This document shows positions 15,001 through 60,000 of a stretch of DNA of 64,000 bases, piece by piece. Source of the DNA: Ruditapes philippinarum. Taxonomy: Eukaryota. Position numbers: made by a program. Position 1 is the stretch's first letter. Every line of letters starts with the position of its first letter. The stretch lies in the NCBI RefSeq assembly GCF_026571515.1, contig NW_026863984.1, positions 124,001-188,000 of the forward strand. Reading direction: 5' to 3'.

Positions 15001-18000
15001 TATATAGAAACACATGAATCTTTTCATTTATACTGATGTTTATATTTACTCCCAAATAGCGAAACAAATTGTTACTTTAAATCAAATACTTCAAAATCAG
15101 TTCAGCCTTTTCTTAGTTATAAGAGGAAAAGGTGTAAAATTTCAATCGAGCTTTGTGCCCTAAAAGTTTTATCTCATAAATTTCATTAATTGCATCTATA
15201 TCATAGAATACGAAATGTTTTGTAAGTAATTTTAAGCTAGGTTGAACCGAGTTTTGGATTTAAAAAAAGCAAAAAAAGACGTCAGTAAATGGTTGTTTCA
15301 TCTATTTATAATATCCAAACATCCTATCTAAGACATAAATCATGATGAAAATAAGTGCAAGCAATTTATTTCTATAAAGGTTATTATACCGCATTCACCG
15401 GCCTGTGAAATTAAAATCAAAATTGTTTCAAAAGTTCATATCGGGTACACAGTCGACCTAAAATGTTTCAATTTTATTTATATTTCTATTTGTCAAGTTC
15501 AATTATTAACCGATGAGCTTGGTCGCGTATACACATGTTTTTCTTTATTGAAAACTTACCCTGTTCTGGTATTGCTTTGGTTCAAGTCATATTCAAGGAT
15601 TTGCAATTTATATGGCGAAGAGTAGTGGTTTTTAGACTTATTAAGATCAAGACAGTATGTTATCTAATACGACACCAGTACAAGTTTTTTGTGGAATATA
15701 CAATGTAAGGGGTATATGAGCGAATTATGTACACAACTGAAAACAAAAACCAGTTTTGTGTCACCTAATATAGAACTAATACTGCAAATTTGCACCAGTA
15801 AAAAAAAATAGCCAAACATAGACAATGATAATAAATTTATGCAATTTACTTTATGTTCTTTGTTCTGAAACACATGCTCTTGAAAAAAAAATTATTCACT
15901 TGCGGAAGATACAATCTTTATAAGAACGGTTTAATATTCTAATTGCCTACAAATAGTACAAATAGTAGAACATTGATTGATATATAAAATCATAATTCTT
16001 AATGTTGTTGTCGATGTAGTAACTCTTAATGTAATACCGTGTTTATTATTACATGTATTACATAAGAAAATAATGACTGACAAATTATTGTTAGAATTTT
16101 TACGTTCATATGTATATTTCACCGTACACTGCCACTTTTTTACAGGCATGCGGTTTTGTATACTTGTCATAGCCCTATGTGGCATATACGCCACAGTTGA
16201 ATGCTTACCAAAGGCTGTATATGACAGCAAAAGCGATGGGAATCATCTAGATCTAATCAGGGAGATTGAAGACGCTTTGGAAGAGAGCAAGAGACACAAT
16301 CGTCCCGCTAACATCCACTCAAATCATGGCTCAGCCACAAGGGTAAACAGTAAGCAATCGAAAGCCATTCAACAAGACACGAATGATCCCCCATATGCCA
16401 ACGTCGAGAAGAGCTATATTGAAGTAGCAAGAAAAGTTGCGGATGCGTTCATGGAAGATAGAAAGACCAAGAGCCAAGGTTTGTAGAAATTATTATAAAT
16501 AAAATAAAAAAGTGTTGTTATAACAATCAATTAGTAATTTAGAAAGTGATGTTTTAACGTAAAAATAACAGGGAAATGTTTATTAACCATGTTATAAATT
16601 TGCTATAATGGGATTTTTGTATTGTCTTCATTTCCTATTCACATTTTACGGCTTCGAATGTCGAGATATTTTTCGATGATTTTAAAAATTCATTATAAAT
16701 AAAATACAGTCATGTTTTTATTCTTTTTTGTCACAATATATTCAATTGATTTTTAAGGTTGTACTGCTACGTTAACCAGTGCTTAATATTCAAGCGCTTT
16801 AAGTAAAATATCGAGGCGTTTGCGCATAATAAAACATGCCCTCAGCATTTTTTGTAGTGTCTTTAAAAACTGCATGACGGTCAATTTTTATGACATTTAC
16901 CAATTACCATTAACCAATTTAAAAATCATACAATTATTTGTTGTGCATATCTGGTCAATACAATGTATTTGGTAAAAAGATTTTGTCGCCTTAAATGTTT
17001 TGATCTTTGCTTACACCTACTTTAAAGTTGAATAAGTTAATGGTATCAACAAATTAATGATATCTTATTCCGAACATATTTATTAAATTTAATTGATATA
17101 GTGTCTCATTAAATTGTTAAAATTTATGGTGACTTGGGTTTGAAAACATTAGACCGATTGACCGCGACATTTTCTGATTATATTTGAAAGAATGAAAGCA
17201 AGTATTAAATGGAATGAGCAGGAGAAAGAAATATATCATAACGTATGAGTAACGTCGTAGACAGCTGTGTTGTTCATATCTGCACTATCAAAATTTAATA
17301 TGAAAGAAATTATTAAAGTGGCATTATGCACATTTAAGGGTAAACAGTGAGTGAGCAGATAAAAGACAAAATAAGTTTTTATATTGCCATAATTCCTTTC
17401 AGTTATAATTTGTCTGAAACGTTTAGTTTGTAAAAGGAGTAGGACAGTCTTTTGATATTTAAGACAGATTTTAAATGTTATCCAAAACATTTTCCAAAGT
17501 AAACTGTTGGTCAAACACCATTTTAACAGTCACTCTTTTGAAATAAAATGTCAATTCAGCTCATATTGACTATGAAAGTATGGACATAATGTCACTTTAA
17601 CTCTAATATTACTTGAACCATAGCATACGTCAACTTTGAGGTACGTTTGTGGGGAGACGATTGTTTTAATAATATTGTAATCAACTTTACTGTTCTTTTT
17701 GTCCCTTTACTATGATATTACAAGATTGTCCAGCTAGATGACGTTTTTGCTGTTTAGAAACTTACTTGAAAAGCTGGTACTTTAAGAATGAAGATATAAC
17801 TCGGCTAATACTTTTACTAAGTCAGCCTGATCCGTCTTATTAACCATTACTAGGCACAAAACAAAAGTAATAACATCCTCTGCAGTATATAATCAGTCGT
17901 TGCTGTAAATCCATGACGAGCTTCAAAATACCAAGCTGTCCCTAATATTGATAATGAACAGCTCATAGAACACACTTGATAAAAATTTAACAGGTTAAGT

Positions 18001-57000: not shown

Positions 57001-60000
57001 ACTTAATTGATAAGAATATACTCTAAAGTTACTGTAAAAATTTTCATTAACTTTGTTACAGGGTAAGCTGTAGTCGAATTCGTACACGAACAGGTGGAGA
57101 TTGGGACTTAAGCAGTTGGTAGACTGAACTATATTGATAAATCTCGAAATTGATTTTTGACAGACGGAATATCAAGATTCGATTCGAAATTGGACTTACA
57201 CAGCTGTTCGACTGAAAAAAAGATTTAACTCTCGCTTAGTTTTGGACTTAAATACACCCATTCAATATCAGCAGACTAATTTAAATATGTATAATACTTA
57301 TTTTCATTTGCAAAAAAAAAAAAAATGAAAAAAAATTCTACTTTTATATGTTTCGATATAACGTTGACATCTTAACAAACGAGTATCTTTACTCTTAATT
57401 GAATATATATAAAAAAATGATTTTCCAAGACAATGTGTGTGGAAGATCTTGCTGCATTTTTGATGACTTTTTCTTATATATTGTGCTATTTTATTCTATA
57501 TCTTGAATGTATTCACTACGCTCAATACAATCGCATTAAACAACTTAAAAGCAAAATATGGGTTTCTTAAATTTGATCAACGAGTGTTGCTTGTTGTGTG
57601 TTCATTATAAAAAAGCTGTAACAGATATCAGTTTAAAAAAAAAGGTTCATTCAATATTTAAGTTTATACAGAAATAATATCAAGATATTACAGCAAATAA
57701 CATATATCACCTATAGATATGAATTCACGATTTCATCTTCATAAATTCACGATTTCACCTTCACGAAATGATGAATTCAAGGAGCTTGAATCGTGAATTC
57801 GTGAAGTTGAATTCATGAAGCTGAAATCGTGAGTTCGTGAAGTTAAAATCGTGAATTCATGAAGCGTGAATTTGTGAATTCCGTATTTTAGAAACGTTAA
57901 TTCAAGAGGTCAAAATTGTGATTGAATTGTAGAAATGAAATCGGGAACTTATGGAGTTGAAATGTTCCAATCGGTCGTTCGTAAGTTACTGCATAAATAG
58001 TTATTGTCTATGGTGGCATATTTCTGCCACCAGATAACCTGATAACAAACTAGTTAATTAAGAGGTTAACTAGTTACGTAACTAGTTAACCTGATAATTA
58101 ACTAGTTAATTATCAGGTAAACTAGTTACGTAACTAGTTAATTTTTTCAATAAAGAAAAGATCATAACGGGAAATAAATGCATGTTTGTGCCCGCAACTG
58201 CCATCTCTTATTGTCAGCTTAATATTAAGAGGTTAACTAGTTACGTAACTAGTTAACCTGATAATTAACTAGTTAATTAATAGGTTAACTAGTTACATAA
58301 ATACCTAACTAGTTAACCTAATAATTAACTAGTTAATTATCAAGTTAACTAGTTACCTAACTAGTTAACTTGATAATTAACTAGTTAATTATTAGGTTAA
58401 CTAGTTAGGTATAGGTAACTAGTTAACCTGATAATTAACTAGTTAATTATTAGGTTAACTAGTTAGGTATTTGCGTAACTAGTTAACCTGATAATTAACT
58501 AGTTAATTAAGAGGTTAACTAGTTAGGTATAGGTAACTAGTTAACCTATTAATTAACTAGTTAATTAAGATGTTAACTAGTTACGTAACTAGTTAACCTC
58601 TTAATTTTAAGATGATAATATAATAAAAGGATGGCAGTTGCAGGCACTAACATGCATTTATTTCCCGTTATGATCTTTTCTTTATTGAAAAAATTTACTA
58701 GTAACGTAACTAGTTAACCTCTTAATTAACTAGTTAATTATCAGGTTATCTGGTGGCAGAAATATGCCACCATAATTGTCGATCCGTGTATCCAATAAAT
58801 AAATATAGCATTCCTAAATAGTACGATCATTACAATGTTAAGTTGTTAAATCGTAGGCAGTTGTCGTGGCCGAGTGGTTAAGGCGATGGACTAGAAATCC
58901 ATTGGGATCTTCCCGCGCAGGTTCGAATCCTGCCGACAACGATTTTTTGCCTTATTGTTTTGCCGCCTTTAACAAGAGTAAAAAACCCATTTGTCAACAA
59001 GTTATACGAAGGATGTTTAGAAAAATTTAAGAAGTTAAATACATCGGAGCGATGTTTACTGACATTTATAAAATCTTTATGTAGCGTCTAACTAAAATAG
59101 CCTTTGACGCACGCGCATGTTTGTCCGGATAGACGTTTAAAGAAATGGTGAAATAAGCGCTACTTTATAAAGAAAGTTTATGCAAAAAAGATTGTCGGAA
59201 ATTTTCGAATTTACGTATTCTCATTGAATGAAAATCTAAGTCAAAGACGTATCATTAAACAAACGCTTTTGAGAACAGTTTTTGTTTTTGTGAAATAGAT
59301 TGTCCAGAAATTTCAAATTTATTCATTTTGATTGGTCAAAGATTAATTCATAATTGAACAAAAATAACAAACATGAACTTTGATTTATCAAAACATTTCA
59401 GGTTTCGTTACATTAATACTTGGAGAGTTTAAATTTATTATATTAGTTAAGTATGAATATGATGTTTCGTAACTAGTTAACCTCTTAATTAACTAAATAG
59501 TTATCAGGTTAACTAGTTACGTAACTAGTTAACCTCTTAATTAACTAGTAAGTTATCAGATTATCTGGTGGCAGAAATATGCCACCATATGAAATGTTAA
59601 ACACATTTGTGTTTGAACGTATTGGCCAGTATAAAATATGGTTGCATATTTCTGCCACCAGATAACCTGATAACTAACTACTTAATTAAGAGGTTAACGT
59701 GATACATAACTAGTTAACCTGATAACTTACTAGTTAATTAAGAGATTAACTAGTTACGTAACTAGTTAACCTGATACCTAACTAGTTAATTAAGAGGTTA
59801 ACTAGTTACGTAACTAGTTAACCTCTTAATTAAGTAGTAAGTTATATGGTTATCTGGTGGCAGAAATATGCCACCATAATAATACTTAGATTTTTGGCGA
59901 TTTTTTTTTCTGTCATAAATGTTCTACTCATTCAACATAACTACAACTTAATTTTGGTATCTACTACATTAAATACTGCACCATTACTACTTTTCTTAAA

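What the first reader, a model, noticed from the sequence alone, without database searches (positions are those of the whole stretch)
16148..57122. Tandem pair of co-divergent atypical peroxidases: a coordinated active-site remodelling shared by both paralogs
Seen in both intact genes: (i) F-M-Q-F-I-D-H-D instead of W/F-G-Q-F-x-D-H-D; (ii) R-A-N-V-H instead of R-x-x-E; (iii) Y-R-Y-H instead of F-R-F-G-H; (iv) L-N-I-M-R-G-R-E-W-G instead of L-N-I-Q-R-G-R-D-H-G. Distal Q289/H293/R427, proximal H524/N612 and the Ca2+ loop are retained (gene A numbering). Synonymous sites in several exons are heavily diverged, so these changes were kept under selection for a long time. From memory of the families, (i), (iii) and (iv) shift toward alpha-dioxygenase/LDS-like states (non-Gly before the distal Gln, YRxH, RxRE or RxW). 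Inference: a distinct subfamily with non-standard chemistry that automated pipelines would simply label peroxidasin-like or chorion peroxidase-like.
[Added by the scan's program, not by the reader: the finding's places include an assembly gap (unread letters, written N; its length is only estimated) at 52595 to 52860. Whether the letters on both sides are continuous or in frame is not known: test that first.]
Basis: partly seen in the sequence, partly recalled or inferred. Interest (0 to 1): 0.75.

Follow-up and report, generated by a model that had tools for sequence, protein, structure and literature searches.

The report
Tandem atypical animal heme peroxidase genes
Two neighbouring copies of a secreted animal-type heme peroxidase gene share four unusual changes around the heme pocket, which probably alter the enzyme's chemistry, but how widespread or new this variant is could not be checked here.

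Summary
Two head-to-tail genes (A 16148-32178, B 40391-57122, + strand) each have 14 exons, and all 26 introns are GT-AG. Six or seven exons per gene match Pfam An_peroxidase in order. Both genes carry FMQFIDHD, RANVH, AYR|YH (split by an intron) and LNIMRGREWG.

They keep the distal Gln/His/Arg, the ester-forming Asp, the Ca2+ loop and the proximal Asn/Arg. The assembly gap lies inside intron 11 of gene B and hides no exon.

Solved structures and 14 bacterial relatives show that myeloperoxidase-branch enzymes have G-Q, R-x-x-E, [FY]-R-x-G-H and Q-R-x-R-D-H-G at these four sites.

"Co-divergence" is shared descent plus concerted evolution. The exons holding motifs (i) and (ii) have dS of about 0.16, against 0.5 to saturation elsewhere.

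Best reading: these are secreted peroxidases whose heme is held by a single ester bond, through Asp only, giving weaker halide chemistry. A tyrosyl-radical or dioxygenase-like role is possible but untested.

The parts
16148..32178 (+). Gene A: 14 exons, CDS 2250 nt (750 aa) plus stop TAG at 32176-32178
   Evidence: Exon map. All 13 introns are GT-AG and the CDS length is a multiple of 3.
16148..16478 (+). A exon 1: ATG, hydrophobic signal-peptide-like N-terminus, acidic pro-region
   Evidence: No Pfam family. The signal-peptide reading is by eye.
18054..18168 (+). A exon 2
   Evidence: Matches B exon 2 by tblastn.
18901..19139 (+). A exon 3: start of the peroxidase domain
   Evidence: PF03098 profile positions 1-33, 24.8 bits.
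20079..20295 (+). A exon 4: distal helix with motif (i) FMQFIDHD at 20237-20260
   Evidence: PF03098 positions 37-90, 35.5 bits. Aligns to EPO, LPO and MPO. The donor at 20295 is the only one whose phase fits the exon 5 acceptor.
21262..21365 (+). A exon 5
   Evidence: No Pfam hit on its own.
21822..21929 (+). A exon 6: Ca2+ loop TSYLDAS at 21854-21874
   Evidence: PF03098 positions 144-174, 36.1 bits..
22927..23031 (+). A exon 7
23439..23613 (+). A exon 8: motif (ii) RANVH at 23447-23461. Distal Arg kept, ester Glu replaced by Val, MPO Met243 position is His
   Evidence: PF03098 positions 214-270, 87.3 bits. MPO alignment at E = 4.4e-16.
25252..25371 (+). A exon 9: ends ...AFSMAY plus AG of the split Arg codon
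   Evidence: No Pfam or PDB match on its own.
27379..27573 (+). A exon 10: begins with A of the split Arg codon, then YHNLMP (putative proximal His at 27383-27385)
   Evidence: No Pfam, PDB, hhalign or Atlas match on its own. dN/dS against gene B is 0.13.
27901..28116 (+). A exon 11: motif (iv) LNIMRGREWG at 27971-28000, with proximal Asn and Arg(+3) kept
   Evidence: PF03098 positions 374-443, 64.5 bits. PDB alignments.
28860..29023 (+). A exon 12
   Evidence: PF03098 positions 445-493, 57.6 bits.
30082..30184 (+). A exon 13: end of the Pfam domain, donor TG|GT
   Evidence: PF03098 positions 503-530, weak at E = 0.084..
32118..32178 (+). A exon 14: C-terminal 19 residues and stop
   Evidence: Found through its match to B 57051-57119, E = 6.8e-9..
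40391..57122 (+). Gene B: 14 exons, CDS 2241 nt (747 aa) plus stop TAG at 57120-57122
   Evidence: Exon lengths equal those of gene A except E1 and E4.
40391..40724 (+). B exon 1
41492..41606 (+). B exon 2
42302..42540 (+). B exon 3
   Evidence: PF03098 positions 1-33, 27.5 bits.
43539..43743 (+). B exon 4: motif (i) at 43697-43720
   Evidence: PF03098 positions 37-88. 94% nucleotide identity to gene A over the first 201 nt.
44754..44857 (+). B exon 5
45949..46056 (+). B exon 6: Ca2+ loop
   Evidence: PF03098 positions 144-172.
47082..47186 (+). B exon 7
47589..47763 (+). B exon 8: motif (ii) at 47597-47611
   Evidence: PF03098 positions 214-270, 85.8 bits. 94% nucleotide identity to gene A.
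49292..49411 (+). B exon 9: left half of motif (iii)
   Evidence: A stop codon directly after AGG in the intron reading fixes the donor.
50611..50805 (+). B exon 10: right half of motif (iii)
52268..52483 (+). B exon 11: motif (iv) at 52338-52367
   Evidence: PF03098 positions 374-443, 62.7 bits.
52595..52860 (.). Assembly gap (N), inside gene B intron 11 (52484-53019)
   Evidence: Profile positions run from 443 to 445 across the junction.
53020..53183 (+). B exon 12
   Evidence: PF03098 positions 445-498, 61.9 bits.
53760..53862 (+). B exon 13
   Evidence: PF03098 positions 502-530, weak at E = 0.024..
57062..57122 (+). B exon 14 and stop

Best explanation
The region holds two old tandem duplicates of one gene for a secreted, single-domain, Ca2+-binding heme peroxidase. 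The gene belongs to the myeloperoxidase (MPO), peroxinectin and peroxidockerin branch of the peroxidase-cyclooxygenase superfamily.

Shown by the sequence:
- The catalytic core is kept: distal Gln-His-Arg, the Asp that forms one heme ester, and the proximal Asn and Arg. A His sits where the proximal ligand is expected.
- Four derived changes were present in the ancestor of both copies. Met replaces the Gly before the distal Gln. Val replaces the Glu that makes the second heme ester, and the next residue is His. The Gly before the proximal His is lost, giving Y-R-Y-H. Q-R-G-R-D-H-G has become M-R-G-R-E-W-G.
- Both copies are under purifying selection (dN/dS 0.16).
- The two exons that carry the distal-side motifs have been kept nearly identical, most likely by gene conversion limited to the exons.

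Inferred mechanism:
- The heme can be fixed by only one ester bond, through Asp.
- By analogy with the one-ester enzyme DdPoxA, and with the reported link between the number of heme-protein bonds and redox potential, the enzyme should still react with H2O2. It should be a poor oxidant of chloride and bromide.
- It would act on easier substrates: iodide, thiocyanate, and phenols or tyrosine. That would suit cross-linking or defence outside the cell.
- The Tyr three residues before the proximal His is in the same register as the catalytic Tyr of cyclooxygenase (COX), alpha-dioxygenase (alpha-DOX) and linoleate diol synthase (LDS). It is a candidate radical site.
For: Gene structure:
- All 26 introns are GT-AG, and phases and exon lengths agree between the copies.

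Family assignment:
- PF03098 hits are collinear in both genes. Exons 4, 6, 8, 11 and 12 score above the 25-bit cut-off on their own.
- PDB alignments place the query with MPO, EPO and LPO. For E8: MPO 4.4e-16, EPO 7.6e-14, 8s6c 8.8e-13, DdPoxA 3.5e-12, COX no better than 5.3e-8, DUOX1 0.0023.
- For E11: 8s6c 2.9e-7, DdPoxA 1.4e-6, LPO 1e-5, alpha-DOX 0.004.
- Against the bacterial loci, the MPO-type group scores higher than the alpha-DOX-type group for E3, E4, E6, E8, E11 and E12 in both genes, 12 of 12 comparisons.

Residue states:
- These were read from alignments.

Selection and concerted evolution:
- Overall dN 0.15, dS 0.94, ratio 0.16. E4 and E8 have dS 0.16 and 0.17.
- The heterogeneity is significant: p = 5e-15, and p = 2e-5 on four-fold sites.
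- Ungapped identity in the 60 nt of intron either side of these exons is at background, 0.33-0.47.

Chemistry by analogy:
- DdPoxA has one ester bond, E'0 of -0.276 V, no chloride oxidation, poor bromide oxidation, and fast iodide and thiocyanate oxidation. The same paper states the correlation of E'0 with the number of heme-protein bonds (PMC5787809, passages).
- Heme curvature from the covalent links sets the redox properties (PMC9138014, passage).
Against: - No expression, protein or activity data exist for these genes.
- The proximal His assignment rests on position and a short motif. Exons 9 and 10 match nothing on their own in Pfam, PDB, hhalign or the Atlas.
- The full-length protein was not searched or folded.
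- DdPoxA lacks the Asp ester, not the Glu ester, so it is only a mirror-image analogue. No Asp-only enzyme was found characterised in the papers I read.
- Losing a residue in the proximal helix could disturb heme binding altogether.
- Gene conversion is inferred from dS alone. Strong constraint on synonymous sites is not formally excluded.
Confidence: 0.55

Rival explanations
1. The proteins work through a tyrosyl radical, like cyclooxygenase (COX), alpha-dioxygenase (alpha-DOX) and linoleate diol synthase (LDS). The Tyr at -3 from the proximal His (Y504 in gene A) would be oxidised by the ferryl heme and abstract hydrogen from a fatty acid or another substrate. That would make these genes an MPO-branch lineage that has converged on dioxygenase chemistry.
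For: - Y-R-Y-H has exactly the register of Y-R-M-H in rice alpha-DOX, of Y-R-[ML]-H in all 10 bacterial alpha-DOX-type loci that cover the site, and of fungal Y-R-W-H, which holds the catalytic Tyr (PMC4727417; PMC8097960).
- In the 22 residues flanking the split Arg, the query is identical to bacterial alpha-DOX-type loci at 6-8 positions without a gap (10 of 10 loci). It matches MPO-type loci at 3 positions with a one-residue gap (3 of 3 loci).
- By my own count on the and 57 alignments, the same window gives rice alpha-DOX 9 of 22 and human MPO 5 of 22.
- The other three changes also move toward alpha-DOX states: a bulky residue before Gln, no ester Glu, and R-x-R-E.
Against: - The genes keep features that family 4 lacks: the ester Asp in D-H-D and the proximal Asn (PMC4420034).
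- All alignable exons are closer to MPO-branch proteins.
- By my own count on the alignments, the spacing from the proximal His to the Asn position is about 88 residues. That is near MPO (85 by the numbering quoted in PMC3533774, His336 and Asn421) and shorter than rice alpha-DOX (about 93).
- No substrate channel could be examined.
- A Tyr near the proximal His also occurs in ordinary-looking members: A-A-Y-R-F-G-H in L005, and Drosophila Pxt Y564/H568 (PMC6372189).
Confidence: 0.12
2. The proteins have lost catalysis and serve as structural, adhesive or binding proteins. They would be pseudo-peroxidases, like the mutated peroxidase domain of dual oxidases.
For: - Four changes cluster at heme-contacting positions, including a deletion in the proximal helix.
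- Degenerate relatives do occur. Bacterial L002 has lost both His residues. The dual oxidase peroxidase domain is described as mutated and inactive (PMC4420034).
Against: - Distal Gln, His and Arg, the Asp, the Ca2+ loop, and the proximal Asn and Arg are all kept in both copies.
- The motif-bearing parts are the most conserved stretches, at 93-100% nucleotide identity in 30-nt windows.
- No RGD, KGD or LDV motif was found.
- dN/dS of 0.16 shows constraint but does not say for which function.
Confidence: 0.15
3. Motif (iii) is an artefact of the predicted splice junction, and the real mRNA encodes a standard F/Y-R-x-G-H.
For: There is no transcript evidence. The motif spans an intron, and neither exon can be aligned on its own.
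Against: - In gene B a stop codon follows AGG directly, so exon 9 cannot run further.
- The AG|A junction, GT donor, AG acceptor, phase and exon lengths are identical in two copies whose introns are otherwise unalignable.
- The only other upstream AG in gene A is in the wrong phase.
Confidence: 0.05

Closest known systems
Chordate peroxidases MPO, EPO and LPO (family 1) and the related solved enzyme 8s6c
   Same: - An_peroxidase fold signature.
- Distal Gln, Asp-His-Asp and Arg.
- Ca2+ loop.
- Proximal Asn and Arg.
- Exon 8 is about 60% identical to MPO over 57 residues.
   Different: - Met instead of the Gly before Gln.
- Val instead of the ester-forming Glu242.
- No Gly before the proximal His.
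- M-R-G-R-E-W-G instead of Q-R-x-R-D-H-G.
Dictyostelium DdPoxA (PDB 6erc)
   Same: A secreted single-domain member of the same branch with only one heme ester bond. Its reduced halide chemistry is measured (PMC5787809). E8 matches at E = 3.5e-12 and E11 at 1.4e-6.
   Different: DdPoxA keeps the Glu ester and has lost the Asp (Ile100). The genes here keep the Asp and have lost the Glu. DdPoxA has the standard F-R-F-G-H and Q-R-N-R-D-H-G.
Short peroxidasins of nematodes
   Same: They are reported as the exception in which Glu242 is not conserved, and they are single-domain proteins (PMC3533774, passages).
   Different: No sequence was available here for comparison. The states at the other three sites are unknown to me.
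Alpha-dioxygenase, linoleate diol synthase and cyclooxygenase (family 4)
   Same: - Y-R-x-H register with Tyr at -3 from the proximal His.
- A bulky residue before the distal Gln.
- No ester Glu.
- R-x-R-E, as in rice alpha-DOX (PMC4727417).
   Different: Family 4 lacks the ester Asp and the proximal Asn. Overall similarity is much lower: alpha-DOX E = 0.004 for E11 and not among the 60 hits listed of 65 for E8. The bacterial alpha-DOX-type loci also lack the G-D-x-R-x-N segment.
Peroxinectins and insect Pxt-like peroxidases
   Same: Invertebrate, secreted, single peroxidase domain. Some are implicated in prostaglandin formation (PMC4156296).
   Different: No KGD or RGD integrin motif here. 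The Spodoptera Pxt-like proteins are reported to lack equivalents of COX Tyr385 and His388. Drosophila Pxt has Tyr at -4 (Y564/H568), not at -3.

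Membership tests
Pfam PF03098 An_peroxidase (peroxidase-cyclooxygenase superfamily) | Significant match to the family profile | tested here: met
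   The test was run exon by exon. In gene A, E4 scores 35.5, E6 36.1, E8 87.3, E11 64.5 and E12 57.6 bits, against a cut-off of 25. E3 scores 24.8 and E13 11.9. Gene B gives similar values. Profile positions run collinearly from 1 to 530.
Families 1-3, 5 and 6 (MPO branch) | Distal signature -G-Q-x-x-D-H-D- | tested here: not met
   Gln, Asp, His and Asp are present, but the Gly is Met in both genes. The signature is quoted from PMC4420034.
Families 1-3, 5 and 6 (MPO branch) | -R-x-x-E- with the catalytic Arg and the ester-forming Glu | tested here: not met
   The Arg is present, but the Glu is replaced by Val (R-A-N-V-H) in both genes.
Families 1-3, 5 and 6 (MPO branch) | Proximal His hydrogen-bonded to Asn, with Arg at +3 | tested here: inconclusive
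   Asn and Arg are present and aligned (L-N-I-M-R). The His is present in Y-R-Y-H at the expected place, but exons 9 and 10 cannot be aligned on their own, and the Gly before the His is missing.
Families 1-3 (MPO branch) | [quoted passage not shown] | tested here: met
   T-S-Y-L-D-A-S lies within PF03098 positions 144-174, and D-H-D is kept.
Peroxidasins (family 2) | [quoted passage not shown] | tested here: not met
   No such Pfam family was found in exons 1, 2, 3 or 13 of either gene. Exon 14 (19 residues) is too short to scan. The domain list is from PMC3533774.
Peroxinectins (family 3) | Integrin-binding KGD or RGD motif | tested here: not met
   No RGD, KGD or LDV was found in the exon peptides E1-E13 of either gene. 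None is seen in E14. Codons split by introns were not covered.
Cyclooxygenase, alpha-dioxygenase and LDS (family 4) | Tyr three residues before the proximal His (Y-x-x-H) | tested here: met
   Y-R-Y-H is present in both genes.
Cyclooxygenase, alpha-dioxygenase and LDS (family 4) | Non-covalent heme (no ester Asp or Glu) and no proximal Asn | tested here: not met
   The ester Asp and the proximal Asn are both kept. Rice alpha-DOX has V-H-D-W and L-E-V at these places.
Cyclooxygenase, alpha-dioxygenase and LDS (family 4) | Closest overall similarity to family 4 proteins | tested here: not met
   MPO-branch proteins score better in every alignable exon.
Cyclooxygenase, alpha-dioxygenase and LDS (family 4) | Fatty-acid dioxygenase activity through a tyrosyl radical | not testable with these tools
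   This needs enzyme assays and EPR.

The most novel reading that the evidence does not exclude
A lineage of secreted MPO-branch peroxidases has secondarily acquired the proximal-helix register and several pocket residues of the fatty-acid dioxygenases, while keeping one covalent heme link. These are Tyr at -3 of the heme ligand, no ester Glu, and a bulky residue before the distal Gln. It would use a tyrosyl radical to oxygenate lipids or to cross-link proteins. That would be an independent, convergent route from a halide peroxidase scaffold to COX-like or alpha-DOX-like chemistry in an invertebrate.
Probability: 0.12. Interest if true: 0.8.

Novelty: new variant of a known kind. Interest (0 to 1): 0.5.

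Why it matters
In this superfamily the number and kind of heme-protein bonds set the redox potential, and so which halides an enzyme can oxidise. Enzymes with two esters, with two esters plus a sulfonium link, and with a Glu-only single ester have been characterised. I found no characterised Asp-only enzyme in the papers I read. A natural one would fill the missing corner of that series.

Combining this with a dioxygenase-type Y-R-x-H proximal helix, inside an otherwise MPO-like protein, gives a concrete test. It asks how few changes separate peroxidase chemistry from tyrosyl-radical chemistry.

For genome annotation, the case shows that a plain "peroxidase-like" label can hide active-site variants.

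The pair is also a clear example of exon-limited concerted evolution between old tandem duplicates.

Tried and rejected
- Exons 9 and 10 searched on their own gave nothing usable. Pfam found no family at E up to 1. PDB gave 0 hits for E10 and one unrelated hit at E = 6.4 for E9. hhalign of the E10 pair against the bacterial MPO-type and alpha-DOX-type alignments gave probabilities of 0.1 and 0.4. The Atlas gave a best score of 0.77 with unnamed clusters. Smith-Waterman and blastp against the 14 bacterial ORFs gave only noise-level, inconsistent placements. MAFFT --addfragments misplaced A_E10 and dropped B_E10.
- The Atlas search with E11 returned only generic An_peroxidase clusters.
- A third gene copy was looked for and not found. 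tblastn with 26 exon peptides found each cognate paralogous exon (26 of 26) and nothing else below E = 0.2.
- The alternative exon 4 donor at 20279 / 43739 (phase 1, conserved position) was rejected, because the only acceptor of exon 5 needs phase 2 in both genes.
- Reading exon 13 through to its in-frame stop (30197 / 53944) was rejected in favour of the conserved TG|GT donor and a conserved last exon.
- Full-text searches for the motif strings found nothing relevant. For \"YRYH\" with \"peroxidase\", 4 papers were listed and none was relevant. For FMQFIDHD, RGREWG, TRANVH, AYRYH and NIMRGR, 20 papers held a term; the 10 listed were unrelated, being an immunology peptide or author names. The other 10 were not seen.
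- Mollusc shell-matrix papers were seen only as a search listing. They gave nothing on these motifs.
- Peroxidasin and peroxinectin membership were rejected, as set out in the membership tests.

Full report
**Scope and limits**

The window is 64,000 bases with 31.9% G+C and three N runs. I do not take it for human.

The joined protein was not assembled, searched or folded. No census of eukaryotic homologues was therefore possible. Supplementary files of papers were not opened, although alignment figures and tables there may bear on the motif states of invertebrate peroxidases.

**Gene models**

A stop-to-stop ORF list, blastn of the two halves against each other and codon-level inspection give two collinear genes on the + strand.

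- Gene A runs from 16148 to 32178, with a 2250-nt CDS (750 aa).
- Gene B runs from 40391 to 57122, with a 2241-nt CDS (747 aa).
- Each has 14 exons. All 26 introns are GT-AG, and intron phases are identical in the two genes.
- Exon lengths are identical except for exon 1 and exon 4, which is 12 nt longer in A.
- Ten exons align by blastn at 69-94% identity. Introns align only at interspersed repeats.
- The last exon was found because A 32104-32175 matches B 57051-57119 (E = 6.8e-9).
- tblastn with 26 exon peptides found each cognate exon of the other gene (26 of 26) and nothing else below E = 0.2. There is no third copy in the window.

**The assembly gap**

The gap at 52595-52860 lies in intron 11 of gene B (52484-53019). 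It starts 111 nt after the donor and ends 159 nt before the acceptor.

Exons 11 and 12 of B have intact splice sites, the same phases and the same lengths as in A. In both genes they cover contiguous Pfam profile positions: 374-443, then 445-493 in A and 445-498 in B. No exon is expected in the gap.

Whether the two sides are physically continuous cannot be shown from the sequence.

**Family**

Exon by exon, PF03098 (An_peroxidase) is hit in order in both genes:

| Exon | Profile positions |
|---|---|
| E3 | 1-33 |
| E4 | 37-90 |
| E6 | 144-174 |
| E8 | 214-270 |
| E11 | 374-443 |
| E12 | from 445 |
| E13 | up to 530 |

Exons 1, 2, 5, 7, 9 and 10 hit no family at E up to 1. No LRR, Ig or vWC domain appears, and no RGD, KGD or LDV motif is present. 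Exon 1 starts with a hydrophobic stretch that looks like a signal peptide, judged by eye.

**The four motifs against comparators**

All four motifs are present in both genes. Comparator states come from the alignments printed by the PDB search. I also used 14 bacterial loci found with the exon 8 alignment. Three of them are MPO-type (L001, L002, L005). Eleven are alpha-dioxygenase-type. Of the latter, L003 matches rice alpha-DOX 4kvj at E = 4e-102. L005 matches 8s6c at 5e-161 and MPO at 7e-75.

- **(i) FMQFIDHD.** EPO, LPO, MPO, 8s6c, 6erc and L005 have W-G-Q, and L001 has F-G-Q. Rice alpha-DOX and all 10 bacterial alpha-DOX-type loci that cover the site have W-I-Q.
- **(ii) G-D-T-R-A-N-V-H.** MPO has R-S-S-E-M, 8s6c has R-S-N-E, 6erc has R-G-N-E, and L001, L002 and L005 have R-A-N-E. 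Rice alpha-DOX has G-D-I-R-N-S-W, with no Glu.
- **(iii) ...A-F-S-M-A-Y-R|Y-H-N-L-M-P.** MPO has N-A-F-R-Y-G-H-T-L-I-Q-P. 8s6c has C-Y-R-V-G-H, 6erc has A-F-R-F-G-H, L001 has A-F-R-L-G-H and L005 has A-Y-R-F-G-H. Rice alpha-DOX has V-Y-R-M-H-S-L-I-P. All 10 bacterial alpha-DOX-type loci that cover the site have V-Y-R-[ML]-H-x-L-[IL]-P.
- **(iv) L-N-I-M-R-G-R-E-W-G.** 8s6c and L005 have L-N-I-Q-R-G-R-D-H-G. 6erc has R-N-L-Q-R-N-R-D-H-G, and LPO and MPO have the same Q-R-x-R-D-H-G pattern. L001 has I-N-I-N-R-G-R-E-R-G, so this motif varies even inside the MPO branch. Rice alpha-DOX has L-E-V-Y-R-D-R-E-R-S, and the bacterial alpha-DOX-type loci have V-D-L-V-R-x-R-x-R-G.

A review gives -G-Q-x-x-D-H-D- and -R-x-x-E- as the typical signatures outside families 4 and 7, and a proximal His-Asn pair outside those families (PMC4420034, passages).

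**What the comparison means**

The genes are a mosaic at the level of single sites. They keep the hallmarks of the MPO branch: the ester Asp, the Ca2+ Asp and loop, the distal Arg, and the proximal Asn and Arg. Every alignable exon scores better against that branch.

- For E8: MPO 4.4e-16, against COX at 5.3e-8.
- For E11: 8s6c 2.9e-7, against alpha-DOX at 0.004.
- Against the bacterial loci, the MPO-type group wins 12 of 12 exon comparisons.

All four deviations, however, go toward what alpha-DOX shows at the same places. The clearest is the proximal helix. Relative to MPO the query has lost exactly the Gly before the His, which puts Tyr at -3 and Arg at -2. This is the register of Y-R-M-H (alpha-DOX), of fungal Y-R-W-H and Y-R-F-H, and of Y-H-W-H.

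In the 22 residues around the split Arg codon, identity to bacterial alpha-DOX-type loci is 6-8 of 22 without a gap (10 of 10 loci). Identity to the MPO-type loci is 3 of 22 with a gap (3 of 3 loci). By my own count on the printed alignments, rice alpha-DOX gives 9 of 22 and human MPO 5 of 22. This window is short, and exons 9 and 10 have no significant match to anything on their own. The signal is therefore suggestive and not proof.

Bacterial MPO-type relatives carry the standard states. The states in these genes are thus derived within the MPO branch, and they represent convergence rather than retention.

**Divergence of the two copies**

Nei-Gojobori counts per exon, summed without joining sequences, give dN 0.15, dS 0.94 and a ratio of 0.16. 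dS is very uneven across exons.

- E4 has dS 0.16 and E8 has dS 0.17. E11 has 0.48 and E9 has 0.69. The remaining exons range from 0.87 to saturated.
- Synonymous differences in E4 plus E8 against the rest give Fisher p = 5e-15.
- At four-fold sites the counts are 7 of 46 against 80 of 161, p = 2e-5.
- Identity drops to background (0.33-0.47, ungapped) within 60 nt of intron on either side.

The simplest reading is gene conversion confined to the exons, where enough similarity remains for heteroduplex formation. Unusually strong synonymous constraint is the alternative.

- The sharing of (i) and (ii) by the two genes is not an independent long-term record.
- Motif (iii) lies in well-diverged exons (E9 dS 0.69, E10 dS 1.4).
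- The exon with motif (iv) is moderately diverged (E11 dS 0.48). There the motifs sit in locally near-identical patches of 93-96% identity.
- In all cases the changes predate the duplication. "Co-divergence" is therefore common descent.

**Likely mechanism**

What is shown is a secreted-looking, constrained MPO-branch heme protein with an intact distal triad and only one of the two ester-forming carboxylates.

What is inferred is a single Asp ester to the heme. The mirror case, DdPoxA, has a Glu ester only. It has E'0 of -0.276 V, against -0.18 V for two-ester enzymes and +0.005 V for MPO. It does not oxidise chloride, barely oxidises bromide, and oxidises iodide and thiocyanate very fast. Its authors state a general correlation between the number of heme-protein bonds and E'0 (PMC5787809, passages).

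Glu242 is reported as conserved in peroxidasins except in the nematode short peroxidasins (PMC3533774, passages). I therefore expect a peroxidase of low halogenating power acting on iodide, thiocyanate or phenolic and tyrosine substrates outside the cell.

The Tyr at -3 and the His at the MPO Met243 position are candidates for additional redox or linkage roles. This is speculation.

**Relation to insect "COX-like" peroxidases**

Spodoptera Pxt-like proteins implicated in prostaglandin formation are reported to lack equivalents of COX Tyr385 and His388 (PMC4156296, passages). A modelling paper proposes Y564/H568 in Drosophila Pxt and Y399/H401 in CG4009, which are spacings of 4 and 2 (PMC6372189, passages). 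The spacing of 3 found here differs from both and equals that of COX.

**Novelty**

The gene family is well known. The combination of states is what looks unusual: an Asp-only ester set, the Y-R-Y-H register, M-Q and R-G-R-E-W-G.

Full-text searches for the motif strings found no relevant paper among those listed. Such strings are rarely printed in running text, so this is weak evidence. Whether the genes already sit in databases under a generic name, and how widely the variant occurs, stayed unchecked.

I rate it a new variant of a known kind, of moderate interest.

Noticed in passing
window 58860-58941 (+): A tRNA-Ser gene with anticodon AGA lies about 1.7 kb downstream of gene B. Rfam RF00005 scores 64.7 bits, and ARAGORN agrees.
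   Followed up: partly
window 54462-55176 and 55562-56277: A large inverted repeat sits inside the last intron of gene B. Its arms are about 715 nt long in three blocks, 91-97% complementary, with about 385 nt between them. It helps explain why this intron is 3.2 kb in B but 1.9 kb in A. It may be a foldback-type element.
   Followed up: partly
window 29434-29675, 31289-31432, 31966-32000, 42944-43097, 45350-45591, 60078-60316, 62140-62410: An interspersed repeat of about 240 nt occurs in both orientations in introns of both genes and downstream of them. Copies are 75-96% identical, and it appears partly palindromic.
   Followed up: no
window 19319-19502, 28196-28386, 49685-49876; 22164-22241 (inverted): A second interspersed repeat of about 190 nt, at 79-81% identity, lies in introns of both genes.
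   Followed up: no
window 16143-16147 and 40386-40390: In both genes a polypyrimidine tract plus AG ends 2 nt before the ATG. Exon 1 is therefore probably preceded by a non-coding 5' exon that was not located.
   Followed up: no
L003:985-4011 (and the other alpha-DOX-type bacterial loci, alignment A4): The bacterial alpha-dioxygenase-type proteins carry about 480 extra N-terminal residues with a weak Catalase match (PF00199, 19.4 bits, below the 25-bit cut-off). This suggests a fusion of a catalase-related domain with the dioxygenase domain.
   Followed up: partly
L002:2293-4218: This Saprospiraceae MPO-type homologue has lost both the distal His (F-A-Q-F-L-Y-N-D) and the proximal His (F-K-L-G-Y). 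It is a natural degenerate member. L001 from the same family is intact and carries a Por_Secre_tail match (23.8 bits, below the 27-bit cut-off).
   Followed up: no
window 1010-1137 and 13959-14097: Two further assembly gaps lie upstream of gene A, outside any feature described here. The second is flanked by AT-rich simple sequence.
   Followed up: no
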